Assembly: GCA_008632985.1 (NCBI GenBank)
Contig: QPGO01000233.1
Coordinates: 1-64,000, forward strand
DNA length: 64,000 nucleotides
Origin: Psammoneis japonica
Lineage: Eukaryota
Reading direction: 5' to 3'
A program made the position numbers and the translations under genes. Each line of letters begins with the position of its first letter. Position 1 is the first letter of the stretch. Shown here in pieces: positions 16,234 through 57,366 of this stretch. The notes below the pieces were generated by a model. The model had not been told where the DNA came from, searched no databases, and saw only the letters and a list, made by a program, of their open reading frames with translations.

Positions 16234-18914
16234 CTATTCTTGACAGGGACTGACATAGACTCCAGTACAATCTGTGTCCGTGAAGGTAACAACCTTGAAA
16301 TATGGATTGCTCTCCGCAATTTTCTTTATCCACTCGTTGCACGACCCGCAGGGAGGGAGTGGATTCAAGTCCTAATTTGGTCGAGAGAATATGACTTAAG
16401 TTAGACGAAAAAAATCGGAGCTTCAAAGAAGTAAAGGCGGTTCAACCAATCTTACCTCTGAGGAATTTACAACAACCTTGCGCTTCTGTTGAGTCTTTTC
16501 ATACGGATTTGAGTAGAGGCTAATGACACGCTTTGGCGTTCCTGGTGGCGTCTTGTTGGGTGTCGAAGAAACCAGAGACATTGATGGCGGCATATCAAAG
16601 GCAGGCGGAACTGACGCAGAAACGGCAGGTGAGAATCTGGGAGACTTGCGCACGGTAACAACATTCCTTCTGTCTTGAGGGATTCTCGATTCGCTCTTGC
16701 TGCTGTCTGAGTCTTGCCGTGGGGCGTTTTCCACGACCCAGTCTTCTTCCCGCCCCGACCCTTCATCCTCTTGATTAGCATTGGTCTCTTCTTGAATGAC
16801 GCTAGAGAAACTCTCCATACTTGAGGACCGTCCAATCGGATCACTTCGCGGTTTGAAATCCGCCGTTGCCTTGTAGCACACCAACGACTCGGACGATCCC
16901 GCACCTCTACTGTCCTTTGGCAGTGAAACGGACAGGACAGCAATCATTCTCAAATCCTGACGTTTTAGACCGGGATTTGCCGCAAGAGCAGTTCCAATAA
17001 CATTGCGTTCTGCACAAAGTGATCCCGTCGGCATGCTCACTTCCATGTTGGTGCCACGATAGAGCTTCTTCTGCTTGTCGTCTGTCTCTACTAACAGCAC
17101 CGCCAACACAGGCTTTCTCGTTTTGCGCAACCAAAATTTGACCAAATCAGGAGAGATGGATTGACAGAATTCTAGCCGAAAGTTGCGCATTTCCGCTACC
17201 ATCAATTTTAAATTGTCACTGTCATCCATTTTGTCCTTGTCCAATGACGACGCATCAATTGCAGGCACACCCTCCATGTCCTCAAAAGAGTGCACCTCGA
17301 TATCGTCTTCGCAAATCTTGGTATCATGCCAGAAGGTCTTGAGTTGCCACACATGAAAGTAGGTAGGACGGTAACTCTTGAGAGCTGATTGAATGGCATG
17401 AGTACGGGCGTGAGAGCCATCGGCAAAACTGAGCGTCATAGCAAACGATTGTTTCCAGTCTGGCGAAAATGGATTTGCGGTTGCTGTTATTGATTTGGCA
17501 CGACTACTCTCGTCGGGATATAGCTCATTCCGTGCATGTGCATCGCGGTAGGATTCAATGCACGGCAAGAGTTCGCGGTTGGCAAAGCTCATGTTCTCGT
17601 CGTATCGAAATATGTTGGTGTCAGAATGAATCCTTGTAAGTGGTAGTACAAACAATGTGAGGCAAAATTTTTCGATTGATTGTGTGTAGAAAGAGATAGC
17701 ATCATTGACACTCACCTTACGACAGTCACGTCAGGGTACAATTCATGGACAAAGTGTTCCATCAATTCGGCACACGCCCTCGTCGAGTTTCCGCTGACCG
17801 AATGAGTCCAGTTTCTCGGAGTCCCTACTCCACTCACCAACACCACGACCTTTTTAATTGCAATCCCATACTCTTTGGTTTTCATTTGACCATGCCATTT
17901 TGGCAACAGCGTGGCTAGTAGCGGAAAGAACACGTGATTTAGCTTGAAGTCTTGGTGTCCTGCGACTCGTGGCACATCGCGACCCCGGAACCGCAGACCG
18001 TCCTTATCCGCCTCGACAGGATTTGAGAGGCAAAACCCCGTTGGAATCATGGACCGTCGTGAAGGAGTCGGTTGCACAATGGGGTACCGCAGTGTTTGTG
18101 GGGAACGTTCGAATTTGGGAAAGGAAACAATTTCTCTGCGATTGGAAGTCTGAAGCGATTTGAGGATGCGAGTCGAATACAAATCAAATGCAGAGAAGCG
18201 TGGTTGACAGAGACTGTAATCTTCATCGTTCTCGTTTATTTTGGGAAGGTCCACACTGAGCACGAGATCCGTATGAGAGACATTGTGCACCAGCATTTCC
18301 AAATACCTTCCGGAAGAACTTGTTGTAGGTTGACTGGGAGGCTCGCTGAGCATTCTCTCTTCTCGAGGAATATCTCTTATTGTTGAGCGTCTCTTTTCAT
18401 TCAGTTCATCTTTTTCCTCGTCGTTTTCGTCATTTGGTCTCTTATGCATTTCTTCCACAGACAAAACATGCAAAAATAAAAGCGCAATGGGTGTAAGCTC
18501 CCACCACCTGAATCTTGGAGATCCTAGCTCGACCCACCAAGTGGAGAACACGAAAATCATGGGTACATTGATTGGAGATGTGACCTCTTTCCACGCCCTA
18601 TACAATGCACTGCTGCTCCACGCAAACAACTCCTTTATCGCCGGGTGCTCTTGAATCTTGTGGCGAATCTGTATCAATGCCTTTTGCTGTTCACGCTTTT
18701 GTTCTGAATCATTGTAAAGTGCATAGCAGTATCCAAACGTCCCACAAGTCAAACCCGCAAATACCGAGTACAAGAGCGGCAGCAAATGACCCTTTTGCTT
18801 GTTGTCGCTCATCTCCTCACAGTGAGAAGCAGAACACCTACAGAACAACAGAATGTTGAAAGGCGCAAACACAAGAAGAGCAAAAACTGCTCTTCGTCTC
18901 GTTGAATGGGGCAT
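16234..18914 (-). CDS. Large cytidine-deaminase-like (Zn-dependent CDA fold) protein
   Basis: YRGTNMEVSMPTGSLCAERN (CAE motif) and DLNPLPPCGSCNEW (PCxxC). Introns 17715-17633 and 16455-16372, stop at 16234. The start may instead be the ATG at 18812 (MSDNK). Confidence 0.8.
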
Positions 18915-21759: not shown

Positions 21760-24257
21760 ATGCACCTCCCTGCAGTTGTCGTAACGATTCTGCTGTCAGG
21801 GAGTGCAGCCGCAACAACCAACGCCAACTTACCTCAAGCTTGCGCACCTCCTCATGATTACTACCAGTTCTGCAACGCTACTTTACCCTTAAATCAACGG
21901 ATCGATGATTTGATCTCTCGACTCAAGCTCGAGGAGAAACCCTATCTTTTGACGGCCCGTGAGTCTCCATGGAATAACATCAGTCGGCTTGGAGTAAGTA
22001 GGATAGGTGGTTGGCGAATTTGATGGAATATGGTTTTCCGAAGCTTATGCTTTTCGCTCTGCCCTTTTGGCTGTCGATTGGTGTATCGATCGCACATACT
22101 CGTCTGTGATGCGAAATGTAGCTCCCGGAGCTCGATCTCGGGGCAAATTGTATGCATGGCGTTCAGTCGCATTGCACTCGCGATGGACGTTGCCCCACCT
22201 CCTTCCCGAATCCAAACACATTGGGCCAGACTTTTAATAGAACATTGTGGAAAGGTATGGGGGCTGTAATTGGGTTGGAATTGCGGGCGTTGTGGCTACA
22301 AAATGTGTCGGAAAACAACCCAGACAGGCTGCCTCATATCGGATTGGATTGCTGGTCACCCAATCTAAATATTGTGCGGGATCCTCGATGGGGCCGTAAT
22401 TTGGAAACGCCCTCAGAAGATCCCTTTTTGATCGGAGTCTATGGAGCTCAATACACTCTTGGACTTCAGAATAACGCTGATTTGGACGCTAGATACCTGC
22501 AAGCTGTTTCAACATTAAAACACTTTGATGCCAATTCTCTGGAAGGACCTTACTGGACAGCGGATGGAAAATGGGATCCCGAGCATGGAAATATTTCCAG
22601 ACACAATGTGAATGTAAAACTTTCCTTGTATGATTGGTTCTCGACATACCTACCGGCCTTTGAAGCGGCTGTAAAACAGGGAGGAGCAGCTAGCGTCATG
22701 TGCTCCTACAATCGAATCAATGGTGCGCCGGCTTGTGCGCACGAATACTTACTCGAGCAAGTGCTTCGAAAGGATTGGAACTTTCGCGGCTATGTCACGT
22801 CGGACTCCGGCGCCATTGACAATATTTTCATAGACCACAAGTACACAAGCGACTGGCCTGAAACTGTTCAAGTGGCGCTGCAAGCTGGCTGCGATGTGGA
22901 GAGCTCCTTTGAGGCGCATCGTCCATGGGCGACTGGAGGGCGGTACATTGATGAAATTGTTGGCGCGGTACAAAGTGGATTGCTGGAAGAAAGCCTCGTG
23001 GACAGGGCTTTGCGAAATACCTTGGAGGTTCGATTCCGATTGGGGTTGTTTGATCCGATTGATGATCAGCCTTTTTGGAACGTCCCTTCGTCGGTGGTCC
23101 AGCAACCGAGGCATGTGCAAACGGCGAAAGAAGCGACAGCCCAAGGGTTGGTATTGCTGAAAAACGAAAACAACTTGCTTCCCATTGACATTGAGAAATA
23201 TTCGATTGCTCTGATTGGGCCTCATATTGACGACGAAAGAACAATGGCTGGAAACTACATCGGGCAGTTGTGCCCTGATTCTGATGAGCATTGCGTGATG
23301 ACGTTCTCCCAGGGATTTGCCAACGTCATTTCGAAGTATGGAGGGCGGCTCAAAAAGGCAAAGGGATGCGCAATTTCGAAACTTGATACAAGTGGATTTG
23401 TAGAGGCTGTAAATGTTGCATTGGAGTCCGACGTCGTCGTTTTCATTGGTGGACTCGACCTGACGATTGAAAATGAGGGGCATGACCGTCATGATATCCG
23501 GCTCCCGTCCGTCCAAACACATCTTTTGAAGAAAATTGTCGAGGTTAACTCAAACATAGTCTTGGTGTTGATGCATGGTGGAATGGTGGGGTTGGATGCT
23601 ATTGTACAAGATGTGCCAGCGATCGTTTCAGCCGGGTATCCTGGTCGGTATGCTGGAGAAGTTCTACCTGGCGTTCTATTTGGTCACAATGAGCGAGCAT
23701 GGGGAAAGCTGGCTGTTACGTGGTACCATGATGCTATCACAGAGGAACTAAATATGATGGATTTCTCCATGACCCGCCCACCAGGCCGAACATATCGCTA
23801 CTACAGAGGCGTGCCGCAGTTTCGGTTCGGTCATGGTATCAATCCATTGACAACATTTGATGTTAAGTTGGTGACACATGTGAACAGGGAGGATGATAAA
23901 TATATTTCTCTGACCGCCATAATTACGAACTCTGGGAATCGTGCTGGGGATGAAGTGATTACTGCTTTCTTCAGCCCACCAGCTGATCTGAAAGCTTCGA
24001 ATCCGGCTTCTTTTCTCCGCGAACAACTGTTCAGCTTTGATCGAGTCCATCTGAAGCCAGGGGTAACGGAAGAAGTTTTCGTGGTGCTGTCGTCTGAAAT
24101 GCTAAGACTGCATGATGTAGACGGAATGAAAGTGCTCTATGCAGGAACCTACCGTATTCGAGTGACGAATGGAATGACTGAGTCGACTGTTTCGGTTCGA
24201 GTTGACCAGAAAGGTATGCTTGCAATTGCAGGCGAAGAAGTTGCATCAAAACGTTAG
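21760..24257 (+). CDS. Secreted GH3 glycoside hydrolase (beta-xylosidase/BXL-like)
   Basis: Signal peptide and intron 21994-22121. Motifs WSPNLNIVRDPRWGRNLETPSEDP, LKHF, SVMCSYNRING, VTSDSGAI (nucleophile Asp), LVLLKN, GRTYRYY and a C-terminal Fn3-like domain. Confidence 0.93.
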
Positions 24258-39042: not shown

Positions 39043-40980
39043 ATGTCGCAAAACACCGATGATCTTTTCGCCAGGTACGTCAGATTATACCTCCGTTTTT
39101 CTCAGCAGGATCTGGAACTTCCGACTGGCTCTCCTTTAGTGCATTAAAATATGTGACGACTCTAACGTATCCGTCCGTTCCGTATTTTTCAGCTTGGGCG
39201 GTTCGGTCATGAAGGACTTGTGGGATGACCTGCAAGTGGGCGAAGACGATCTGAAGACCGATCGATGGTCGTTGGAGCAGCTAGAGCGAGAGCTTGCTCA
39301 CTTGGAAGAACCGCCGCCACCGCCACCTCCTGGTCTATCGGCTGCGTCTTTGGTTGTCTCCCATGCTCAAGAAAAACAACATCAGCGTCCGGAAACTACT
39401 ATACCGACGACTACGACATCCGCCGCGGATGCCTGGAGTGAATCGCTTCAGAAATTTACAGCACTCTCTCTAGAAAAGGACTTCTTAGCAGCTGATTCGG
39501 CGCGAAAGCAGCAGACGGCACCGCCACCGGGTCTCGAAATTTAAAACTATTCGAGGATGCTACTGATTATGATGTTTCTGAGAAAGTGGAATTGGGTACT
39601 CCTCCTCCGGGAATGGGTGCTCCGCCTGGACTAGCGGCGGTAGCTCGATCTCAAGTATCAAAACAGCAGCAAGCCGCGAAGACTCCACCCATACCTGCGC
39701 CTGTAGAGCAGAAGCCGATGCCGATGCCCTTTCCCCCGCAACAGCCATCTACTCCGCAACAACAACCTCCGATGCAGCCTCCTCAGCAACAACAGCCTCC
39801 GCCGCCGCAGCCACAACAACAGCCAACTGCAGTTCTGAGACGGCCTCAACCGCCTCAGATGCAGCAACCCGTGGTTATTCAGCAGCCTCCACCGATGCAA
39901 CAGCAGCCTCCACTTACTGTGCAGCAACCTTCTGCGGGTGGAATGGCGTGGCGATCGCCTCCTCCGAAGCAAATGCAGGCACCGCCTACTCCAGCTCGTG
40001 TGTACTGCCAGCCTCATCCATCGGCGCCGCCCATTCCAGCTACCTTGCTAGAATCGTCCTACATGAAGGCTCGCGATATTTCTTATGTCTTGCATAGCAT
40101 GTTGAAGCCCGTCTTGCTCATGCCAGCGTCATCGAATTATCATTTGGAACTGCTTTCGCGACACTACATGCAGCAACAAAATGTCAAGGAGCCCGGGGCA
40201 CCGATCAAGGGACTCAGGAGTGATACCGCCGTATCGCTCAAAAGTAAAGAATGGATGGAGAAACATTCGACATTGGGCCACTTGTCCAAGGCGGACGTGA
40301 CGAGGCCACGGGCTCTGATTGCGACAACGACATTGTCCAAGGAACAGCTAGAGCAACAAGACGATGGTACCAGGAAGCAACGTGCCTCATTATGGAAGTC
40401 TCGTCTATACATTGATCAAGCCTATCAAGCTTACAATAATCTTGTTCGCGTATGGAAGGCTTCTGCCGCGGGCAAGGTGCCACCCCAAGAGATTCAACAG
40501 CATCTGTTGCGATTGTACAAGTTTCTGGGCATTTCTATTGCTACGACTGAAGGCGGTGCCACAGCTGTCGACCCAGCGGTATTGGGAATCATTTTGAAGT
40601 TATCAAAAGGCAAAGTGTTGGTGGCTCGCATTGTAGAGCAAGCGCTCCTGCCACCCCACGTCGTACAAGCATTGATGCCTGCAGTTTTTGAAATTCTCCT
40701 GCCTTCGGCTACAAACAAAGACGATCCCTCTCCCGAGAATCGCTTGTTTGGAGCCTGCGCTCGTGTCTTGACGACACTTCCCTCCTTGACAAAAGACAAT
40801 GTGGCTTTGTGTTTGCAGGAATTCTTGAATCATTCCGAGCACGCCTTGGATACTACCTTTCGTATGGAGTGCATCCATGCGTTGCTGCAGCGGGGTGGTT
40901 CAATGGCAGCGGCTGATCCGGCCTTTGCTTCGCAGACGTGGACTGCCATGGAGGAGCAATTTCTTAAAATGCTATCGTAG
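39043..40980 (+). CDS. PAT1: PAT1-like mRNA decapping activator
   Basis: Exon 39043-39074, intron 39075-39192, then a Pro/Gln-rich region, YMKARDISYVL, LGHLSKADVTRPRALI and LSKGKVLVAR. One 1-nt frameshift at about 39538 (A run). Confidence 0.72.
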
Positions 40981-42056
40981 GCGTCTAGGGCTGTGCCTGA
41001 GGAGGTTGTGGGGAAAGACTTTGTGTACTAGATCTGATTATTACTAGCACGATCCTCTTGTTCACTAGCACCATCCATCCCATAGTCTAGCTTCGTCTTT
41101 CTGGACACTGTCTTCCAATTTCATTACAAAGGAAAAGACTGGCGCTGCTGACAAAATAAAGACAGCGGAACTGTGAAGCCCCCTCATCATCTTCCCGGGA
41201 TGTCGTGGGTAGAGTTCAGTTGTTTTTGTTTGTAGCATTGCAAACACAAAATGTCAATTTGTTTGTGGGGTTTGGCTTCTTGGGCGTAAGTTCGGCCGCA
41301 GTCATGCTGTGGTCAACAGTAGACAGAATGTATTCAAAGAGAGCCTGGTTCGATGGCTGGCGCATGAGACCAATGCCCACAAGAATAAACAGCAATTCTT
41401 TACATTTCGTCATCCTCTTCTTAACCCACGACACTATATGGAAGAGGCAATGCAATTCAATCACGTCTGTTTTTCAATACCGACAACGTCAACCTCTTTT
41501 TTCTTCGCCTTCAATGAAACAATCTCGCGTAATATGGCTCTTGCGACACGACTGAAGTCACCCTACCTACTATGGTATGGTACCTACGGTAATCGATCGT
41601 TGATGACGTCATCGCACGACTCAAGGTGCGGTGAGAAAAGAGTGCATCCAGCATGTAACGCGTAACGCAAATAAGTTTCAGAATAGGAGTTCTTCGCGAT
41701 GGACTCTCAGTTCGACAACATAAGCTCAAGGATATACATGTCAGGGTAGTGATAGGTGCTACCACTCCATTGTGTCAGCGTACCTTTTAGGGTACATGTT
41801 TTTACCAGCAGCAGAAGAAAAGCGAGGAGTACAGGAGCCCGGCGACCGATGGACGCCCAACGGACACTAACGTGCGTTAGATGCGTTACGTACCGTACAA
41901 TAGAGGGCCCCTATCATACAGCATGTCTGTGCGCTCAAAATATGATGTGTTTTTTGTGTTGCGTTTTACCGTAGAGACAAACTTGCACCGGTAACGTATT
42001 GTAGAGGAGTGACACCAGACGTCAAATTCAGGGCCCTACCGAGTGTGTTGTTCACA

Positions 42057-43795
42057 ATGGCACAACAACAACAGCTCAAAAGCCAAAGCACTAATAAAAT
42101 GGATATGGCTGCACCTTGTCGAAGGGTACTTTTACTTGCCGCCATGGTTATCCAGAGCTCAAGCACAGTACTTATCGGTCGATATACGCGATCCAGCTCT
42201 CCACAAGAAGAGTTGTATGAGATTAGCATTTGATTCTTTTGTGTGAAGTTGCAAAGGTGATTGTGAATGGAGTGCTCGAAGTGGTGACATCCGGAGGACG
42301 CTTCTTTGAGAGATTGAAGAAAGGCACATGGCAACAACCCATGGATACCATGAAGCTTTCGATCCCAGCGCTTTTTTACTTTATCCAGAATTCTCTTTTT
42401 TACGTTGCCGTCGGAAATTTGAGTGCTCCGGTATTTCAAGTTACATACCAGAGCAAACTCGTTGCTACGGCTGTTGTGAGTGTTGTCATGTTACAACGAA
42501 GATACACGGTTCGACAGTGGGCGTGTCTTGTTGCATTATCTCTGGGAGTGGCAATTGTTGTTTTGGGTGAAGCGAGAGAAGGCAGTGACTACAAACGTGA
42601 ATTAAATCAGAATCTGTTTTCGGGGCTCGGCGCTGTCTCGGTTTCGTGCCTGTGTAGTGCCTATGCTGGGGTGTACTTTGAAAAGATTGTTAAGCACAAC
42701 AATGGGGTACCGGTGTCATTGTTTATGCGTAACATGCAGCTTGCGTTCTTTTCCGTACTCTTTGCTTCGCTACAACAAATATTCAATGTCAAAACTACGG
42801 AGAAACCCTTCTTGCATGGCTTTTCGACAATGGCGTGGGTGTTGGTCCTTCTGCAGGCGGTCGGCGGTTTGCTTGTGTCTGCCGTGGTCAAATATGCTGA
42901 CAATATCATCAAGGGACTCGCGACGGGTGTGTCGGTTTTGCTTGCAACGCTCCTGAGCAGTCTTATCTTCGGCACACCATTGACTGGTCATTTTGCTCTT
43001 GGAGCCTTGCTCGTTCTCAACAGTATCTATTTCTTCTGCAACCCGTGCCCGAACATGAAACGCATCCAAGGTATTTGTATGATCTATTTCTTTATTTTTG
43101 CTGTGAAACAGCAGCTGAAGACCTTGCAAGATGCCCTTGCATACTCGCCTTTAATGTCTACGGCTCAAACGTCCTGCGCCGTCATTTATAGCTCTGGAAC
43201 ATTGTTAAAATACAAAGATGGCCCGCTCATTGACACGTTTGATGAGGTGATTCGAATCAACATGGCAGACACGATTGGCTTTGAAGACTACGTCGGCAGC
43301 AAGACGACGATCCGAGTGTGTCATTTGGGCCATAGATTTAGTCCAGCCGCATGGTTTGCCAATCGAAACGAATCCAATGTCAAGGGTCTCACTTTGAATT
43401 TGACCTTTGAACAAAACAAAGGGAAACACCGAGAATGGGAACGTTTAAAGCAGAGTACAGTTTCGGATTGGACCATGGCTCCGAGATTGCTTGAAGACGA
43501 CTGTAATCGTCTTGTCGGGTACGATAGCCCAATGCGTTGCAGCTCTGGCCTCATTATTGTACTCTGGGCTGTTGAGAACTGTGATAGTGTTACGGTGTTT
43601 GGGGCAGTGACGGATCGTTGTTATCCATATCATTATTATGATGCAATCGCACCCAACTGCTCAAGACCACTGCAATTTAAGAAAAAATTCCATGACTTTG
43701 ATCGAGAACACGCCGTTCTTGAGCAGTTGCATTGGAATGGCAATGTGACGATTAACAGGCTGACAGTGGCTGGCAAGAATGCTGCTCCCTTGTAG
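42057..43795 (+). CDS. SLC35A-like nucleotide-sugar transporter fused to a GT29 sialyltransferase-like domain
   Basis: Transporter motifs LCEVAK, IPALFYFIQN, FQVTYQSKL, AGVYFEK and VVKYADNIIKG. A short TM segment follows, then sialylmotifs L (CAVIYSSG..IDTFDEVIRIN..GFEDYVGSKTT), S (SSGLIIV..CDSVTVFG), III (HYYD) and VS (HDFDRE). 1-nt frameshift at about 42227. Confidence 0.88.
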
Positions 43796-44039
43796 GAGGA
43801 AGTGGCCTCTTTGCGTCCGTCCCGCAGCTCTCCAATTGCCGCAGTACAAAATTTTTATTAAGTGAAGCCTAATCTGAGATGTTTGCTGCCGCATGAAGTC
43901 TTTCCATTTCTCTACGTAGTCTCGAGTAAAATGAAACTGAATGACTGAAATATAGTGTGTGTAAATGGAATTATGGTGCTTCAAGGAGCTCTTTGATCAA
44001 AGCCAAGAATCTGTTGTCAACGGAGGGAGCTGGAGTAGC

Positions 44040-46600
44040 GACAGGACGCAGGATGTTGAGAAGATGATGTTTGATGATGCAGCTCAGATGTCCAGATGGG
44101 CCATTCTCAAAGGAAGTCTAAGATTTTGTGGCTCAGTCTTCTGAACAATGTTGTCAGTCTCACTGGCCTGTGAAAACTTGCATCAAGCCATGGGCTCACA
44201 ATGTTGGGTGAATGCTCTGATCACAGCATCCTTTTCCACATGGCCATTGTTGCCAGCATGAGTGCTGGCACAGACCCTCTTCCTCCTGCCTTGCTTGTTG
44301 ATGTGGCAAAGAAGAAGCACCACAACATGTTGCAGAGGGGCACATTGTCAGCCATGACTGAGACCATCACAATGACCTGTCAAGACTCCCCGTGCAGTTT
44401 TGTGGATGTGATCACTCCTTTGGATGTCAAAAAAAGCTCTGAATCACATGGTGGGCCAGCAATGCTGCTCCTGCTGGCCCTGTGCCCTTTGACAAAGCTC
44501 ACATCAATTTTTGAGCACCTTGTTGCATTTCTGTTGAGAACACCAAGTCACCCAACACCCAGCCCTAACAACTCTTGTGCAACACTGTGTCTGCCATTGC
44601 ACCGGCAGAGGAGAACAATGTCAAGATGGTTTTGCAACTTTGAGAGCCCATTTTTGTGAAACCTCTTGCAGAGGTCATTGGCAAGAATTTGTGGGAAACA
44701 CAACTGAGCAGCCAGATTGAGGCTGCATCATGGGCTTTTGGAAATCACAACCCTCACCAACTTGTGGATGCCAGGTGGGAGAACATGCAACCAGGGCATC
44801 AGCAAGTCTTGACCAGCATCACAGGGGCACACTGCACGTGCCTGTTTCAAGAAGGAATGTGCAGGACAATGCAAATCACATGGGCCATCATTGTGGTTTG
44901 AGTCTCTGGAGAACACAGCACACAGCACAGGGGTGCTTGGAACCACAGAATGAGCCTGCACTTGGAGAGTGCTGAGAACAATTAGATTTGCTGCAGAGTG
45001 TGCTGCACACCAGGCAGCTCTGACCATTTGATTGGAAGAAAAGAGAATGGTGCCAACAAAGCTGGTTGGTGATCACAAAGATGAGCAACATGGAGGGCTT
45101 TGGAATGTCAATTCTCTTGTGCAGGAGGTGCATGAATGCCTTGGGAGCACATGGCTCAAGGAATCATTTGCAGATCCAAAAGCAAGGGAGTTTGTTGCAA
45201 AGAGGAGGGATGCTGCTTGTGCTGTCAATGTGGACAGTCGCAAACATTGACACTGGCCTGGCAAATTGTTTGGGTCACATGATGCAATTTCTGTCATGGC
45301 ACTCAGCACTCAAAGGACTGTTTGACACTGTGGTCAAATAACCACATGCATCTCTCCCTGTTGACCAGCCCTGCCCTGCTTTGCACCACAACATGTGATC
45401 TGCCACAATGGCCAACACATCACAGAGGAAGCAAACAGCTAAGATGAGCATGTTTTTTCTTGCTGTGGACAGAAGGCATCAAGACATGCCATGTGCCAGC
45501 CTGAGAAATCTGGGTTGAAAATTTAAAGTGAGTCTCATTTTGGCTGTGCTTCCCTGAAAAGGATGTTGGGGCAATCCTCACAGAAAGCCACAAAGCAAAA
45601 TCTCTGGAGCAAGCTTTGAGGCTGTGGTCAATCACAGCGGAGCTGAGCCACACACTGGGCCAGATTGCTGTCAATCTGGATGACTCCAATGCCCAAATGA
45701 AGCAGCACAAAGGCACTTGAAAGCAGGGCATGTTCAGCAAATCATGCTCTCTCAAAGAAGCAAGAGCACAAAAAGATGCGCACCTCTTTCCTCATTTGTT
45801 CGTGTCATGCCCAGAAGCTTTGGCTGCTCGTCGCCATTTCTCAAAACAAAAGCTGGGGCCAGCAGCAGCCAAGCATGTAGCACAATGTGTCCTGCACTGC
45901 CAGAGACAATGATGTTGGTGATCCAAAGACAAGGAAACTGCTGCAGCAGAGGAGAAAAGCTCTCTCATTTTCTTTTGCACCCAAGACACTCTGCCAGACA
46001 GCATGGCTGCACTGCATTTTTGTCTTGAGCCATTGTTGTTGTGGCCATTGCCAGCCTCCTCTTGAATTTTCATGCAAGAGCTTTCATCCTTTGACTCACA
46101 AAAGCAAAGGAGGTCTCCACCAGATCTGTTTTGTTGCCCTGCCACTCAAGCTGAGACGACAAAAACACACTCGTCTCGCTTGCTGTTTTTTCATGGGCCA
46201 ACGCGCAGATTGGAGTTTGGCTTCTTTTTTCTGTGCTGTTTGGTGTTGGAAGTGCAAAAGGCAACAATGTGGCTGGAGCAGGCCAGGGCTTTGTCAACTG
46301 CAGGGCTCTTGTGGCGCTGCACAAACTGGCACATGGCCGAGAGACAGAAGACATGAGAAGCATGTGCAAGAAAAGACCCAAGCTCCAAAAGGACCCCCCC
46401 CAGTGGATTTGGGAGCGGCCACTCACGCTCAAAACAGCTTAGAAAGTGACTGCAATCTACTGCAGATGCGATTTCAATGTTCTAATTTCAACTCTGAAAC
46501 TCAGCTCCATGGTGCTGCACATTTTTTATTGACTGCCGAGAAACGTGAAGTGTCAAATGACGCAGTGCAGCAGCAATGTCCACCCTAAGAAATGAGTTTT
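44040..46600. other. TpA/CpG-depleted hypermutated block E
   Basis: Same dinucleotide signature, flanked by normal-composition genes. Confidence 0.85.
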
Positions 46601-48609: not shown

Positions 48610-49859
48610 TCAGTGCCCTGCAACCTTCTCGCCTGGATCAGTAGCAACCAGAGCAATTCCAGTCATCAACAAGAGGACGCCAGACCATCCCTGTAGCATT
48701 AGCGTTTCACCCAGCATGAGAAGTCCCAAAACTGCACCGAACATGACAGAACCGCCGATGATTATGGGGATCGACTTGGAGGCGTCCACTCCCATTCCCG
48801 AAACAACAAATGATAACATCTCGGCAGTCCCGACGGCCAGTCCCGCACAACACGCCCAGAGCAAGCCTGTGCCTGAAATGGCTAACTGAGAAGTGCCTTT
48901 TTCATTCCAAATGAGGCCACCTAAAAGTAGAGATCCAAAAACTGCAGCCACAAATTGCAAAATGACGCCCCCAAGAACTGGATTAATGGAAGCTGATCCC
49001 TTCTTGATAAAGATATTGTAGAATGCATACATGGACGCACAAACCAACGCCGGGGCAATCCATATTGCTAACGGCGGAGAGCCAGATGTCAATCCCCGCC
49101 ACCCCCTTCTTCAACCTTTTCTCCAGGATCTGTAGCCACAAGAGCTATACCAGTCACCAACAAGAGGACGCCAGACCATCCGTGCAGCATCATCTTTTCA
49201 CCTAAAACCAGCAATCCCAACACTGCACCAAACATGACGGAACCGCCGATGATCACAGGGATAAATTGACTTGCTTGCACGCCCAGACTCGAGACAAAAA
49301 ATGACAGCATCTCTGCACAACCGACTGCTATTCCAGCGCATACGGACCAACCAAACCCCTTTCTATCGCAATGGATTTCGGGTTTTTCTTCCTGCGGAAG
49401 GAGGATGCGGGCCGCAAGCAAAAACGTACCAAGAATGGCCGCCACAAATTGCAGGACAACCCCACCTAAAATTGGATTGATCGATGCAGAACCCTTTTTG
49501 ATGAAGATATTATAAAATGCATAAGCCGAGGCACAGGTCAAGGCTGGAGCAATCCATCGACGTAATGGAGGTGGACCACGCTTGGTAGACAGTCTGAGTT
49601 TGGGCGACATCTTTGTGATGAGTGGGGAAGCTTCCGTAAGTAAAGCCTCATCTGTAAGGTCTCGAACCGAATCAAAGTGACCGCCCAGACGCCCCCCAAT
49701 CGAACGCGTATGATCTTCATGGACTTGAAAAGCTCTTTCCTCCAAGACCCTCAAGCTGTTTCGGCGGTCCAAACTATTCTGTCGAAAGAGATGAATGCTG
49801 TTGGGCTCAAAGGCATCATCATCGCCCTCTTCGACCTTGGCATTAAAATCATCCGCCAT
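48610..49859 (-). CDS. EamA/DMT-family transporter with two repeat domains
   Basis: Two homologous halves (WIAPAL..ASxYAFYNIFIKKGSASINP.LGG..LQFVAA...GIALVATDPGEKV) are joined by a 1-nt frameshift in a G run at about 49095. Probable start MADDF at 49859. Confidence 0.82.
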
Positions 49860-49951
49860 GGCTTTGAAATATAAGAGGGCAACACCGACACCGCCAGCAA
49901 CCACAAGCAAGATGTACCGGTTAAGCAAGAAGCAAAATACTAGTACTGATT

Positions 49952-50003
49952 TGACACGACGACATCGATGACATCGCATCATCGATGATTTTCAATCTCC
50001 ACG
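49952..50003. repeat. Left copy of a ~50-bp direct repeat (partner at 60995-61041)
   Basis: 27-nt perfect match CATCATCGATGATTTTCAATCTCCACG plus upstream TGACAC..GACATCGATGACATC. Confidence 0.85.
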
Positions 50004-53069: not shown

Positions 53070-53142
53070 TAGTAAATTTACTCCCAAACACTTATTCATC
53101 TCTCTTGAGATATATCTACCGATCATATTGTCCTGACCAGAC

Positions 53143-56100
53143 ATGTCAGCAGAAAACTGCCCATTCGAACTTAAACGTCCTGACCGCTCTGAGGAAGAGC
53201 GGCGCAAAGACCAACTCGTGTCTTTTGAAAGCCCCATTGATCCTGACGATCCAGATGGGCTTAAAACTACGATCGAGGTACGTAAGTTAGCTTCAACTGA
53301 ACCGGAAGATGTTCTTACCTTCTGGTCAAACTTCGATGAACTTATCAACGATCTCGGCACGGCTGAAGGACAGCCACGTTTCCGGCTCGTGACCAGACTT
53401 ATGACCAGAACACCAAAAGACGACTGGGAAATCGTCGTAGACGAATACGAAAACCGCGACCAAGTTACATTCGACACTTGTCGTGAAGAATTTCTACTCC
53501 AATGCATGGATGGAGAAATTGCCCTTGACACTGAGGAATGGCTTCAAAGCCTTAAGAAACCCAGGAACCAAACTGTCAAGTCATTTGTTAATGACATCCG
53601 TCGCTTTAATAAGTTGATTAATGTCATGCCTGCGCCAACCGAAGATGACGCCGAAAGAGTTCCGTCATTCACGGAAGCGGAATTATCCGCAATCCTTCGA
53701 AAATGTGGACCAAGATCATGGGCCGAAACTCAGACTAAAGCCCGTCTTCGCAACTTAAACTTGAACGACCAAGCTCAACACTACGAGACTCTCCGACGTA
53801 TGGAACGACGTGGTGACAAAGGGTCTGCCGACAACAACAGACGCAATGACAACAGGAGTCAACGCAACAACGGTCGACATGCGCGTCACGGCCAGAACAA
53901 CGACCAAAATCGCGACACCAGGAACAGGAATCAAAACAATCGTGAACAAACATGTCCAATCCATGGCGTTGTACATCCGAACGGTCAAGAGTGCAATGTC
54001 ATCCGTCGTGAACGTGAAAATTATGAGCGGAACCGCGCAAATCGGGGTGCGCCGAATCAACAAAATAACTCTCGAAACGAGCCGACACACCGCTGTCCTA
54101 CACGGAGCCGCACACGGAACGTCGAAAACAATGATGTGGACTCCAAAGCCAGTCGCTCCGCTTCTAACGATGTCGATAGCGTCGCGTCAGACGACATCAA
54201 CGACATTTTTGAAGACGTCACGTCTCTTCTAGACGATTCCATCGAATCCGAAGTAGAAGACAATCTTACCACGGAAGCGCGTGTCCAGATGATTGACACT
54301 CATTCTGGAATGCACAAGTTCCGTGTTGCTCTACTCGATACCGGCGCAAATCGCAATTTTGTGAAGCGCTCAGCCCTTCGCGGGATTCCTCACAAAATCC
54401 GTAAATGTAACGTTCCCGTTAAAGGCCGTTACAGTACCGTTAATCTACACGAGATTGCGACGCTGACATTGAAGTTCCCAGACTTCGCATCGTCCAAGAA
54501 GGTTTCCGTCGATGCTTATGTGGAAGACAAAGCCGTAGGAAAACACGATATTATCATCGGAAGAAAAACCGCCACAGAAATGGGACTCGTTTTTGATTTT
54601 CGACATCAAACAATCACGTGGGGCGATGTTACCCTATCCATGCGATCCAAGGGCTCTTTCGACCAAGTCGAAGTTAATGCAATTCATCCCGGCGATGCTG
54701 AATTACCCAAGTTCTTCCAGAATGCCGTCAACCGTCAGGTTCGAGGTATGACGAGCAATACGTACGACAAGCACAATTATCGCGACATGGTTCTACGCTG
54801 CAAACACCTTGATAACGATCAACAGCACCAACTCATCGAACTCTTCGGACGATACCCGCAATTATTCGATGGTACACTTGGAGCTGTACCCGGTAAACCC
54901 GTCCATTTGACCCTGAAACCAGGATCGCGTCCATACTGTGCGAAAGCTTACACTATTCCGCAAGCGTTATATCCCATGGCTCGCAAAGAAGTGGATGAAT
55001 TGGAAAAAATCGATGTTATTACGCGCAAACTTCACTCTCCTTGGGGCGCACCCTGTCTTTTCCGATCGAAGAAAAGCGGTGGTATCCGTTTCTTATCCGA
55101 TTTACGGAAACTCAACGAGTGTCTCGAACGGCATCCATATCCACTACCTATTATCGACGACGTCGTATGGAAAATGAACGGCTTTACCTATGCGACATGT
55201 TTGGACCTCAACCGAGGCTACTGTCACTTCGTGCTTGACGACGAGTCAAAAAAACTCTGCGGTATCATCCTGCCGTGGGGCAAGTATTGCTACAACCGCC
55301 TACCGCAAGGAATCAAACCGGCAAGCGATATTTTTCAAGCTTACATGACAGATATTTTTCATGATATGGAAGATATCATAGTCTACATCGACAATATCAT
55401 CCTCTTTACCAAGAACAACTTCAACCATCACTGTCAACGACTCGAACTCGTCTTGCAACGGCTCCTCGCGAACAATCTTCACGTACATGTCGAAGAATCC
55501 TATCTCGCCGCCAAGACCGTCGACTACTTAGGCTATACCATGACTACAAAAGGTATTCAGCCTCAGAAAAAGAAAATCCTACCCTTACTTCGCTTCGCTC
55601 GCCCTCAAAACCGTCGACAATTACGTGGTTTCATCGGGTTCGTGAATTATTACAAGAAATTGTGGTACCGACGCAGCCACACTCTTACGCCCTTAACTGC
55701 GCTGTCATCAGACAAAGTCAAATTCAAGTGGACTGACGTCCACACGGAAGCTTTCAATCAGATGAAAAAAATTATGGCGCGCGAAATCCTCCTCCGATTC
55801 CCCGACTTCTCTCAACCTTTCAATATCTATCCGGATGCGAGTGATTATCAACTTGGTGCAGTAATTACTCAAGATTTTGACGATGGCGAATGGCCAATTG
55901 CATTCTACAGCCGAAAATTATCTCAAGCGCAACGAAACTACACGACAATGGAAAAAGAGCTACTGTCGCTCGTGGAAACGACCGAAAATTTCAAAAGCAT
56001 CCTTTTTGGTCATCGATGCTACCTATTTACCGATCACAAAAATCTTACATTTGACAAATTCAAGTCAGAACGCGTCAAACGCTGGCGTTTACTTCTCGAG

Positions 56101-57366
56101 GAATACGATTACTCTTTCGAGTACCTGCCAGGCCATAAGAATGTCGTGGCTGATTTTTTGAGTCGCTATCCTATTGTCCAAGTCGATCAAAGCGATTACG
56201 AGGAAATGACTTCGTTGGAAATCGATCCTTCAATATTCCCCGTTACTTTCGATATTATCGCCGACCATCAGAAAAAAGATTCTGCTCTTCAGCAACGACT
56301 CGACAAGTCCGAATCCTACTCAGCCGAACTGTTCAACGGAAAACAGATTATCCTTTACAAGAACAAGATTGTCCTCCCTCCAACGCTTTTTCCTACAGTT
56401 CTACGGTGGTACCATGAAACTCTCTGCCATCCTGGTGCTAATCGCACCTACCAAACTTTGGCTTCACATTTTTACATTCGCGACATGCAGACGAAAGTCC
56501 GTACTTTTGTCCGTAAGTGCCGCACGTGTTCCAAATCCAAGCGTACTACGGCAAACTATGGCGAATTACCTCTTCCAGATACTACTTATAAACCTTGGCA
56601 GGCAACTCAAGTCGATCTTTTCGGTCCCTGGACGTATACCGACAAAAATGGTGTCGATCGCAAAATCAGAGCCGTTTCAATTATTGATGTCGCAACCCGT
56701 TGGGTCGAACTCGCGAACTATAAGTTCAAAACGTCCGAAGACATTTCACTTATCGTCGATCGCGAGTGGTTTTGTCGCTATCCGCGACCAGAAATTGTCA
56801 TTTATGACAACGGTTCCGAATTCACTTCCGAGTTTACAGATCTCCTCTACAGTTATGGTGTTAAACCGAAACCTACAACAATCAAGAATCCTCAAGCCAA
56901 CGCGTTCGTTGAACGTATTCATCAAGTGATAGCCGATTCTCTCCGTGCGATGGATCTCCCTTCTCGCGATCATGATGAAGACACAATTCATGGAATTTTG
57001 CAATCCGTTGCATGGGCCTTGCGCAGTACCTACCATACTGCCCTTATGTCGTCTCCCGGACAAATTGTCTTCGGTCGAGACATGGTCATTTCTGCTACTT
57101 ATCTTGCGAACTGGAAAATGATTAATACCCGTCGCAAGCGCGATGTCCTACGCAATAATCTCCGCGAAAACGCAAAACGTCTTACTTGCGACTACAACAT
57201 CGGCGATCAAGTCTTCGTTATGACCAAAGACATCCAACGCAAACTCAACACCAAAGATGGTCCTTTCCGTATCGTACGTGTCCATACCAATGGAACCGTT
57301 ACCATCCAGCGCTCGCCTCACGTCACTGAACGTATCAATATCCGCCGTCTTCACCCTGTCTTCTAA
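53143..57366 (+). CDS. Gag-Pol polyprotein (protease-RT-RNase H-integrase)
   Basis: LLDTGA (protease), LPQG and YIDN (RT), DASDYQLG and EKELL (RNase H), H..H..C..C with D,D,E (VDLF, YDNGSEF, VERIH) and a GPF motif. Domain order is Gypsy-type. Confidence 0.97.
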   Translation: MSAENCPFELKRPDRSEEERRKDQLVSFESPIDPDDPDGLKTTIEVRKLASTEPEDVLTFWSNFDELINDLGTAEGQPRFRLVTRLMTRTPKDDWEIVVDEYENRDQVTFDTCREEFLLQCMDGEIALDTEEWLQSLKKPRNQTVKSFVNDIRRFNKLINVMPAPTEDDAERVPSFTEAELSAILRKCGPRSWAETQTKARLRNLNLNDQAQHYETLRRMERRGDKGSADNNRRNDNRSQRNNGRHARHGQNNDQNRDTRNRNQNNREQTCPIHGVVHPNGQECNVIRRERENYERNRANRGAPNQQNNSRNEPTHRCPTRSRTRNVENNDVDSKASRSASNDVDSVASDDINDIFEDVTSLLDDSIESEVEDNLTTEARVQMIDTHSGMHKFRVALLDTGANRNFVKRSALRGIPHKIRKCNVPVKGRYSTVNLHEIATLTLKFPDFASSKKVSVDAYVEDKAVGKHDIIIGRKTATEMGLVFDFRHQTITWGDVTLSMRSKGSFDQVEVNAIHPGDAELPKFFQNAVNRQVRGMTSNTYDKHNYRDMVLRCKHLDNDQQHQLIELFGRYPQLFDGTLGAVPGKPVHLTLKPGSRPYCAKAYTIPQALYPMARKEVDELEKIDVITRKLHSPWGAPCLFRSKKSGGIRFLSDLRKLNECLERHPYPLPIIDDVVWKMNGFTYATCLDLNRGYCHFVLDDESKKLCGIILPWGKYCYNRLPQGIKPASDIFQAYMTDIFHDMEDIIVYIDNIILFTKNNFNHHCQRLELVLQRLLANNLHVHVEESYLAAKTVDYLGYTMTTKGIQPQKKKILPLLRFARPQNRRQLRGFIGFVNYYKKLWYRRSHTLTPLTALSSDKVKFKWTDVHTEAFNQMKKIMAREILLRFPDFSQPFNIYPDASDYQLGAVITQDFDDGEWPIAFYSRKLSQAQRNYTTMEKELLSLVETTENFKSILFGHRCYLFTDHKNLTFDKFKSERVKRWRLLLEEYDYSFEYLPGHKNVVADFLSRYPIVQVDQSDYEEMTSLEIDPSIFPVTFDIIADHQKKDSALQQRLDKSESYSAELFNGKQIILYKNKIVLPPTLFPTVLRWYHETLCHPGANRTYQTLASHFYIRDMQTKVRTFVRKCRTCSKSKRTTANYGELPLPDTTYKPWQATQVDLFGPWTYTDKNGVDRKIRAVSIIDVATRWVELANYKFKTSEDISLIVDREWFCRYPRPEIVIYDNGSEFTSEFTDLLYSYGVKPKPTTIKNPQANAFVERIHQVIADSLRAMDLPSRDHDEDTIHGILQSVAWALRSTYHTALMSSPGQIVFGRDMVISATYLANWKMINTRRKRDVLRNNLRENAKRLTCDYNIGDQVFVMTKDIQRKLNTKDGPFRIVRVHTNGTVTIQRSPHVTERINIRRLHPVF

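What the first reader, a model, noticed from the sequence alone, without database searches (positions are those of the whole stretch)
42057..43795. Nucleotide-sugar transporter-sialyltransferase (SLC35A-GT29) fusion protein
Seen: one reading frame with no stop runs from a complete SLC35A-like transporter through an extra hydrophobic segment (IQGICMIYFFIFAV, after Met at 43055) into a GT29 domain with all four sialylmotifs. Known: SLC35A C-termini are cytosolic and GT29 enzymes are type II lumenal Golgi proteins that use CMP-activated sugars, so the extra helix gives the correct topology. Inference: a substrate-channelling importer-transferase for CMP-sialic acid, CMP-Kdn or a related sugar, in a lineage whose sialylation is poorly characterised. 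The L motif is atypical (CAVIYSSG versus CAVVGNGG).
Basis: partly seen in the sequence, partly recalled or inferred. Interest (0 to 1): 0.8.

Follow-up and report, generated by a model that had tools for sequence, protein, structure and literature searches.

The report
Sugar importer fused to sialyltransferase
A probable diatom carries one gene joining a Golgi importer of activated sugars to a sialic-acid-attaching enzyme, most likely for the sugar Kdn, so it offers a natural test of whether importer and enzyme hand the donor over directly.

Summary
The fusion is real in DNA, but the frame as given is not stop-free. From 42057 it stops at about 42231 because the assembly lacks one base; short-read contigs have that base, which gives 579 aa. 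The transporter-to-GT29 junction is open.

Six other sequences (40-49% identical) have the same layout: SLC35A transporter, an 11th helix, then GT29 with all four sialylmotifs. A glycosylation sequon conserved in 7 of 7 fusions supports a lumenal catalytic domain.

This is the only GT29 found in the genome. The genome also encodes one CMP-ulosonate synthetase-NeuB fusion carrying the Kdn gate-keeper arginine, and no UDP-GlcNAc 2-epimerase or KdsA was found, so the donor is probably CMP-Kdn. The fused transporter has Ser at one CMP determinant (7/7 fusions, 0/116 standalone relatives) but lacks the Tyr214 determinant. Two other paralogues carry both, so import by this half is inferred only.

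There is no transcript evidence, and a donor-like splice site lies in the linker. A transporter-glycosyltransferase fusion was already noted in Ostreococcus; I found no SLC35A-GT29 fusion in print. Verdict: new variant, interest 0.66.

The parts
42057..43795 (+). Whole gene, SLC35A transporter - helix 11 - GT29; 579 aa once the base missing from the assembly at 42226/42227 is counted
   Evidence: full-length homologues of 571-587 aa
42057..42227 (+). N-terminal tail and first transmembrane helix of the transporter, in a different frame from the rest in this assembly
   Evidence: resembles the N-termini of homologues by eye; no Pfam hit on its own
42226..42228 (+). One-base assembly error at a site with two alleles
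   Evidence: tables 4 and 8
42233..43036 (+). Nucleotide-sugar transporter domain (PF04142), helices 2-10
   Evidence: E 1.9e-74; mouse CMP-sialic acid transporter E 4.3e-49
42743..42745 (+). Ala at the position of mouse CST Tyr214 (CMP determinant absent)
42878..42880 (+). Ser at the position of mouse CST Ser261 (CMP determinant present; Ala in 116 of 116 standalone relatives)
43037..43063 (+). Short loop after helix 10, inferred cytosolic, with Met43055 and Lys-Arg just before the extra helix
   Evidence: termini of mouse CST thought cytoplasmic
43064..43105 (+). Extra hydrophobic segment (helix 11, type II-like anchor). It contains an AG|GTA donor-like site at 43071.
   Evidence: hydropathy 1.85 over 15 residues, weakest of the 7 fusions; AlphaFold2 helix 277-304
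43118..43738 (+). GT29 catalytic domain (PF00777); the only match in the genome
43175..43315 (+). Sialylmotif L with its cysteine; subfamily-type start
43538..43603 (+). Sialylmotif S with its cysteine
43631..43639 (+). Sialylmotif III (His-Tyr-Tyr)
43655..43663 (+). N-glycosylation sequon kept in 7 of 7 fusions and 0 of 4 unfused relatives
43691..43708 (+). Sialylmotif VS (His-x4-Glu) with the catalytic histidine

Best explanation
The gene encodes one 11-helix Golgi protein of a diatom (lineage inferred from homologues). Step 1 (inferred from sequence): a cytosolic CMP-ulosonate synthetase-NeuB fusion encoded at G000:C125:13718-15337 makes Kdn-9-phosphate from mannose-6-phosphate and PEP and, after an unidentified phosphatase acts, activates Kdn to CMP-Kdn. 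Step 2 (inferred, least certain): the SLC35A half imports CMP-Kdn in exchange for CMP. Step 3 (topology inferred from helix count, charge bias, sequons and cysteines): helix 11 places the GT29 domain in the lumen next to the transporter. Step 4 (family knowledge): GT29 transfers Kdn to a glycoprotein, glycolipid or polysaccharide acceptor by the inverting, His-base mechanism and releases CMP, which feeds the antiporter. The fusion fixes 1:1 co-localisation of importer and transferase; strict channelling is not required. Shown here: the fused frame in DNA, its conservation, the motifs and the companion synthase gene.
For: Two Pfam domains in one frame. Six other fusions: P0002, P0003, P0005, P0022, P0122, P0140. 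None of the 7 has a stop after helix 10, and 4 of 7 have no Met between helix 10 and helix 11. All 7 have a hydrophobic linker segment with 2-6 Lys/Arg before it. AlphaFold2 models (mean pLDDT 85.1 and 84.5) show an extra helix; Foldseek of the P0002 model gives mouse CST first and ST6GalNAc2 at rank 8. Conserved sequon 7/7 against 0/4. One GT29, one CMAS and one NeuB match in the genome, the last two in one ORF beside a eukaryotic ribosomal-protein-like ORF (label recalled). The best PDB hit of the CMAS half is P. parvum NeuA (E 2e-57), and the Arg196 gate-keeper is kept (PMC12934254). No PF02350 or KdsA match. Ser261-equivalent in 7/7 fusions against 0/116 standalone relatives (PMC6508934).
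Against: Tyr214, the second CMP determinant, is Ala in 7/7 fusions, as in 105 of 116 standalone relatives. Two other paralogues of the genome (L012, L015) carry both Tyr214 and Ser261, so CMP-Kdn could enter without this protein. The fused transporters may form one clade (support 83; not one side of a branch in the larger tree), so Ser261 may be a single event. Helix 11 of this protein is short and the weakest of the seven (1.19 over 19 residues), is T-rich DNA, and holds a donor-like site. Fusions were found through gene calls on contigs, which favours open frames. No good Kdn-9-P phosphatase was found. Absence calls come from a genome of unknown completeness.
Confidence: 0.58

Rival explanations
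1. The fusion protein is real and GT29 uses CMP-Kdn, but the transporter half does not import it. It carries a UDP-sugar needed for the acceptor, or exports CMP, or serves mainly as a Golgi anchor, while the Tyr214/Ser261 paralogues import CMP-Kdn.
For: Ala at the Tyr214 position, and descent beside a diatom clade with UDP-type small residues at both positions. L012 and L015 have the full CMP signature. The fused transporters sit on long branches, and P0122 shows drift in conserved motifs.
Against: Ser261, proposed to orient Asn210 for cytosine, is present in all 7 fusions and in none of 116 standalone relatives. Lys55, Asn210 and Lys272 equivalents are kept.
Confidence: 0.22
2. The DNA frame is continuous but the cell mostly makes separate or rearranged products: splicing from the donor-like site at 43071 gives a standalone transporter (or removes helix 11 in frame), and/or an internal start at Met43055 gives a standalone type II GT29.
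For: AG|GTATTT at 43071, T-rich DNA (51% T over 41 bases, top 1.2% of windows), and acceptors that would give a truncated transporter (41-50 or 121 bases) or an in-frame 60-base skip. Met-Lys-Arg plus a hydrophobic stretch looks like a type II N-terminus. P0131, inside the same GT29 clade, is a 249-aa protein with its own anchor.
Against: Three such donor-like sites occur in the 1566-base frame and no CTRAY branch motif lies near the linker. The linker is open and hydrophobic in 7/7 fusions, with Ala/Val-rich helices in P0022 and P0140 that do not look like translated T-rich intron; 4/7 lack a Met there.
Confidence: 0.1
3. The architecture and topology are as proposed, but the donor is another CMP-ulosonate (Neu5Ac, Kdo or a modified nonulosonate) rather than Kdn.
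For: The NeuB half scores below the cut-offs of both NeuB and PseI, so its product is not assigned by family. Plant GT29 proteins have been proposed to transfer Kdo (PMC5811610).
Against: Arg at the gate-keeper position, which in P. parvum NeuA excludes Neu5Ac; no 2-epimerase or KdsA match.
Confidence: 0.08
4. The gene is a frameshifted pseudogene.
For: The assembly frame from 42057 stops at about 42231.
Against: Short-read contigs carry the extra base in both alleles, and all catalytic motifs are intact.
Confidence: 0.02

Closest known systems
SLC35A nucleotide-sugar transporters: mouse CMP-sialic acid transporter SLC35A1 (PDB 6oh2/6oh3), maize CST (6i1r), UDP-sugar transporters SLC35A2/A3
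   Same: PF04142 over its cut-off; aligned over the whole of helices 2-10; Lys55, Asn210, Ser261 and Lys272 equivalents kept.
   Different: Ala instead of Tyr214; an 11th helix and a GT29 domain replace the free cytosolic tail. Nearest named relatives are standalone diatom transporters with Ala at both specificity positions.
CAZy GT29 sialyltransferases (porcine ST3Gal I 2wnb, human ST6GalNAc2 6apj, ST8SiaIII)
   Same: Motifs L, S, III and VS, both motif cysteines and the catalytic His; fold match.
   Different: Anchored behind a transporter rather than by a free N-terminal signal anchor; very short stem; subfamily-specific L and S motif starts; extra conserved cysteines. The stramenopile GT29 rows in Petit et al. 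2018 are Aureococcus and three 'Stramenopiles sp.', none named as a diatom.
Non-covalent transporter-transferase complexes of the mammalian Golgi (SLC35A1-ST3Gal4, SLC35A2-B4GalT1)
   Same: The same functional pair, donor importer plus the transferase using that donor; delivery within one assembly is proposed there 'in theory' (PMC11994309 passages).
   Different: Here the pair is covalent and 1:1.
[quoted passage not shown]
   Same: A published note of a transporter domain and a glycosyltransferase in one gene.
   Different: Different transporter subfamily and GT family; mentioned in passing in the passages I read; I did not examine its sequence.
[quoted passage not shown]
   Same: The genome's CMAS domain is closest to PpNeuA among solved structures and keeps Arg196.
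   Different: Synthase and synthetase are fused in one ORF here. The Golgi importer and transferase are not treated in the 2018 paper ('sialyltransferase' and 'transporter' 0 occurrences).

Membership tests
SLC35A / Nuc_sug_transp (PF04142) | Profile score over the curated cut-off | tested here: met
   251 bits against a cut-off of 27
SLC35A / Nuc_sug_transp (PF04142) | Ten-helix DMT fold | tested here: met
   Full-length homologue P0002 model matches 6oh3, TM 0.78 by target; the window's own model lacks helix 1 because of the assembly error
CMP-sialic acid transporter (SLC35A1 type) | Tyr214 equivalent | tested here: not met
   Ala in 7 of 7 fusions
CMP-sialic acid transporter (SLC35A1 type) | Ser261 equivalent | tested here: met
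   Ser in 7 of 7 fusions
CMP-sialic acid transporter (SLC35A1 type) | CMP-sugar/CMP antiport activity | not testable with these tools
   needs a transport assay
CAZy GT29 | PF00777 over the cut-off | tested here: met
   99.8 bits against 23
CAZy GT29 | Sialylmotifs L, S, III and VS with the catalytic His and the L/S cysteines | tested here: met
   L and S start atypically, as in unfused relatives
CAZy GT29 | GT-A variant 2 fold | tested here: met
   Foldseek of the P0002 model: 6apj E 2.8e-6, 5bo9 E 1.5e-5, 2wml E 2.1e-5
CAZy GT29 | Lumenal catalytic domain behind a membrane anchor | tested here: inconclusive
   Helix 11, Lys/Arg before it and a conserved sequon fit; the side was not measured
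CAZy GT29 | Transfer of an ulosonate from its CMP donor | not testable with these tools
   needs an enzyme assay
Kdn-specific CMP-sialic acid synthetase (companion gene on C125) | Arg at the PpNeuA Arg196 position | tested here: met
   Arg219 of P0130, 13 residues after the conserved Tyr

The most novel reading that the evidence does not exclude
This diatom lineage runs a eukaryotic Kdn-glycosylation pathway compressed into two fusion genes: a cytosolic synthase-synthetase, and a Golgi importer-transferase in which CMP released by the GT29 domain directly drives uptake of the next CMP-Kdn through the same polypeptide. The importer was retooled from a UDP-type diatom paralogue, and the design (transporter, helix 11, lumenal enzyme) recurs in a second, 1552-aa protein of the same genome.
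Probability: 0.3. Interest if true: 0.85.

Novelty: new variant of a known kind. Interest (0 to 1): 0.66.

Why it matters
Whether Golgi nucleotide-sugar transporters hand donors directly to partner transferases is open; in mammals it rests on interaction assays. A natural covalent importer-sialyltransferase can be purified as one chain, reconstituted, cut at the linker and compared with its separated halves, which makes channelling directly testable. The find also points to sialic-acid-type (Kdn) glycosylation in diatoms, with possible roles in adhesion, frustule coats or virus binding (inference), and offers a mixed Ala214/Ser261 transporter for testing how SLC35A proteins choose CMP over UMP. 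A single-gene importer-transferase could be useful in glyco-engineering.

Tried and rejected
RNA evidence: no RNA holder listed. Run X2 has no cover at 43071-43180 (one contig ends at 43070, the next starts at 43181), no joint was reported, and its kind is only guessed. The gap is not used for or against splicing; the two ends do not form a canonical intron pair. Homologue DNA: the one metagenome scan picked transporter patterns and returned 65 loci, none matching beyond residue 317 of the query, so I could not inspect the linker DNA of other fusions. Viral contigs: 1 candidate stretch, 0 confirmed (exact patterns, close relatives only). ESM Atlas: only sub-0.9 transporter clusters for P0001 and no usable hit for the C98 protein. 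Kdn-9-P phosphatase: one weak match, 26 bits against a cut-off of 107. The careful tree did not finish, so only quick trees were used. In one search the columns labelled Q101, N102 and K124 were mis-registered and were dropped; one search crashed after the motif counts and its hydropathy part was redone. The LicD reading of the C98 protein is below cut-off (E 0.13) with no PDB match. Rejected: pseudogene; a degenerate L motif (shared by unfused relatives); bacterial contamination (nearest named transporter relatives are diatoms; eukaryotic-type neighbours). Literature searches with no fusion found. Earlier scan notes: nothing for this sequence, these words or this genome. No complex prediction was run.

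Full report
Observation. Read from the ATG at 42057, the frame gives 58 residues and stops at about 42231. The long open frame is 42227-43795; I kept its part from 42230 as P0001, 521 aa. So 'no stop from a complete transporter' is wrong for this assembly. Contigs of two public runs explain the break. One X1 contig (depth 60.6) covers 41946-44200 with 0 other letters and 1 gap, an extra base behind 42226. Two 61-base X2 contigs each carry one extra base at the same place, as two alleles. Either restores a 579-codon gene. Both runs are one sample and may be the assembly's source, so they correct the consensus and add no independent support; a DNA contig does not show one transcript. In P0001, PF04142 covers residues 2-269 (E 1.9e-74) and PF00777 covers 297-503 (E 2.3e-28).

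Lineage. The genome has 91.4 Mb in 597 contigs. The named relatives of the transporter half are diatoms such as Epithemia, Cylindrotheca and Cyclophora, and an own paralogue (L005) nests among them. 'Diatom' is therefore an inference.

Conservation. Of the best 120 of 719 hits, 4 carry both domains (P0002, P0003, P0005, P0022). Of 10 hits to the GT29 region, 3 do, adding P0122. I scanned 28 of the 150 representatives listed against Pfam; 1 more, P0140, has both domains. The six are 40-49% identical to P0001, come from Logan, ENA and JGI, and are unnamed singletons. In a 22-row quick tree the 6 fused transporter halves tested form one side of a branch (support 83), sister to standalone diatom transporters. 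In a 40-row tree they do not, and long branches meet. The GT29 tree groups 5 fusions with one apparently unfused 249-aa protein, P0131 (98), and leaves P0022 and P0140 unplaced. One origin is likely but not shown. These proteins come from gene calls on contigs, which favours open frames.

Topology. Mouse CST has ten helices with both termini thought to be cytoplasmic (PMC6508934, passages). All 7 fusions have a hydrophobic linker segment (1.85-2.87 over 15 residues) with 2-6 Lys/Arg before it; 4 of 7 have no Met before it. The window's segment is the weakest. AlphaFold2 with 73-row alignments gives an extra helix at 277-304 in P0001 (pLDDT 85.1, pTM 0.59) and at 324-356 in P0002 (84.5, 0.68). 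The P0002 model matches mouse CST first and GT29 structures from rank 8. One Asn-Cys-Ser/Thr sequon is kept in 7 of 7 fusions and 0 of 4 unfused relatives, and each fused GT29 domain has 6-7 cysteines. This fits a lumenal domain; I could not measure the side from coordinates. Motifs L, S, III and VS with the catalytic His (PMC10225777, passages) align with porcine ST3Gal I. The odd L start is shared with unfused relatives.

Splicing caveat. An AG|GTA donor-like site lies at 43071 in T-rich DNA. In silico, acceptors at 41-50 or 121 bases would truncate the protein to a transporter, and one at 60 bases would remove helix 11 in frame. Against this, three such sites occur in the 1566-base frame, no CTRAY motif lies near, and the helices of P0022 and P0140 are Ala/Val-rich. 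I have no transcript evidence either way.

Donor. The genome search gives one GT29 match, this gene, one CMAS match and one NeuB match. The last two lie in one 539-aa ORF at G000:C125:13718-15337, beside a eukaryotic ribosomal-protein-like ORF (label recalled). Its CMAS half is closest to P. parvum NeuA (E 2e-57) and has Arg at the position of Arg196. In PMC12934254 (part 2 of 5 and passages) this residue makes the enzyme Kdn-specific, and R196L switches it to Neu5Ac. No UDP-GlcNAc 2-epimerase or KdsA match was found (completeness unknown), and no convincing phosphatase; PMC6200933 calls such phosphatases redundant (section 10). Relatives with both domains exist at 55-67% identity. CMP-Kdn is thus the likeliest donor.

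Transporter specificity. PMC6508934 (passages) names Tyr214 and Ser261 as the two CMP-contact differences between mouse CST and the UDP transporters (Gly and Ala there). The Ser261 position is Ser in 7 of 7 fusions and Ala in 116 of 116 standalone hits. The Tyr214 position is Ala in 7 of 7 fusions and in 105 of 116 standalone hits (9 Ser, 1 Ile, 1 unread). The Ser may reflect one event. Against a unique role, 2 of the 19 PF04142 matches of the genome (L012, L015) have both Tyr and Ser. Import of CMP-Kdn by the fused half is the weakest link.

Mechanism. Best reading (0.58): CMP-Kdn made in the cytosol enters through the SLC35A half, the tethered lumenal GT29 transfers Kdn to an unknown glycan, and the released CMP leaves through the same antiporter. 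Mouse CST is a nearly obligatory antiporter. Shown here are the fused frame, its conservation, the motifs and the companion gene. Expression as one chain, topology, substrates and channelling are inferred. Rivals: real fusion whose transporter carries something else (0.22), split or spliced products (0.10), another ulosonate (0.08), pseudogene (0.02).

Known context. Petit et al. 2018 (PMC5811610; parts 1-2 of 7, term passages, supplement searches) list four stramenopile GT29 rows, none named as a diatom; 'diatom' does not occur in the main text and 'fused' refers to GNE. Wagstaff et al. 2018 (PMC6200933; passages and section 10) found 7 of 48 Kdn-synthase-like sequences outside haptophytes and dinoflagellates. 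I could not see their Fig. 6 and did not read Table S2, so diatoms may be among them. Kleikamp et al. 2020 (PMC8157484; passages and supplement rows) tested two non-axenic diatoms with no pathway homologues by BLAST; I did not see their mass-spectrometry result. PMC6536626 mentions sialic acid only in references. Mammalian SLC35A1-ST3Gal4 and SLC35A2-B4GalT1 interact non-covalently (PMC11994309, passages). One printed precedent for a transporter-GT gene is O. tauri ostta19g00600 (PMC5082852, passages), which I reached through an earlier scan note. Other unchecked notes report such fusions in fungi. Searches found no SLC35A-GT29 fusion; the library omits most subscription papers.

Verdict. A real, conserved, rare fusion hidden by an assembly indel. 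The architecture class has precedent, while this pairing and the companion Kdn-type synthase fusion in a probable diatom appear undescribed. New variant of a known kind; interest 0.66.

Noticed in passing
G000:C125:13718-15337 (+), L025:3718-5337, P0130: One 539-aa ORF joins a CMP-ulosonate synthetase with the Kdn-type Arg to a NeuB synthase. Relatives with both domains are 55-67% identical.
   Followed up: yes
G000:C98:35820-40478 (+), L093:2821-7479: A 1552-aa ORF begins with an SLC35A transporter bearing the full CMP-type signature, then a further hydrophobic segment, a weak LicD-like stretch (E 0.13), a weak GDPD match and a beta-lactamase-fold match. It may be a second transporter-enzyme fusion, perhaps for a CDP-linked donor.
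   Followed up: partly
G000:C8:582063-583349 (-), L094:4064-5350: Standalone 428-aa SLC35A paralogue with Tyr214 and Ser261 equivalents; a candidate CMP-sugar importer.
   Followed up: partly
G000:C350:42879-43735 and G000:C6:371933-372651: Other transporter genes are split into overlapping pieces, suggesting more assembly indels; the C350 copy is near-identical in protein to the C46 copy and may be a haplotig.
   Followed up: no
window 41917-41945: Two sequence forms upstream of the gene in both runs, consistent with a heterozygous site.
   Followed up: no
proteins P0132, P0134, P0135, P0151, P0307: Related GT29 domains occur in long multi-glycosyltransferase proteins (with PF01762, PF13733/PF02709, PF04488 or FkbM domains), and P0307 joins NeuB to GT29.
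   Followed up: no
window 53137-57366 (+): 1409-codon retrotransposon ORF with reverse transcriptase, RNase H and integrase domains.
   Followed up: no
window 16423-17730 (-): LmjF365940-type CDD/CDA-like deaminase domain, E 2.6e-38.
   Followed up: no
window 22122-24257 (+) and 49089-49991 (-): A family 3 glycoside hydrolase and an EamA-like transporter; no sign of a cluster with the fusion gene.
   Followed up: no
window 39613-40980 (+): 455-aa Pro/Gln-rich ORF just upstream, no Pfam hit; it resembles a PAT1-like mRNA decay factor (recalled, untested).
   Followed up: no
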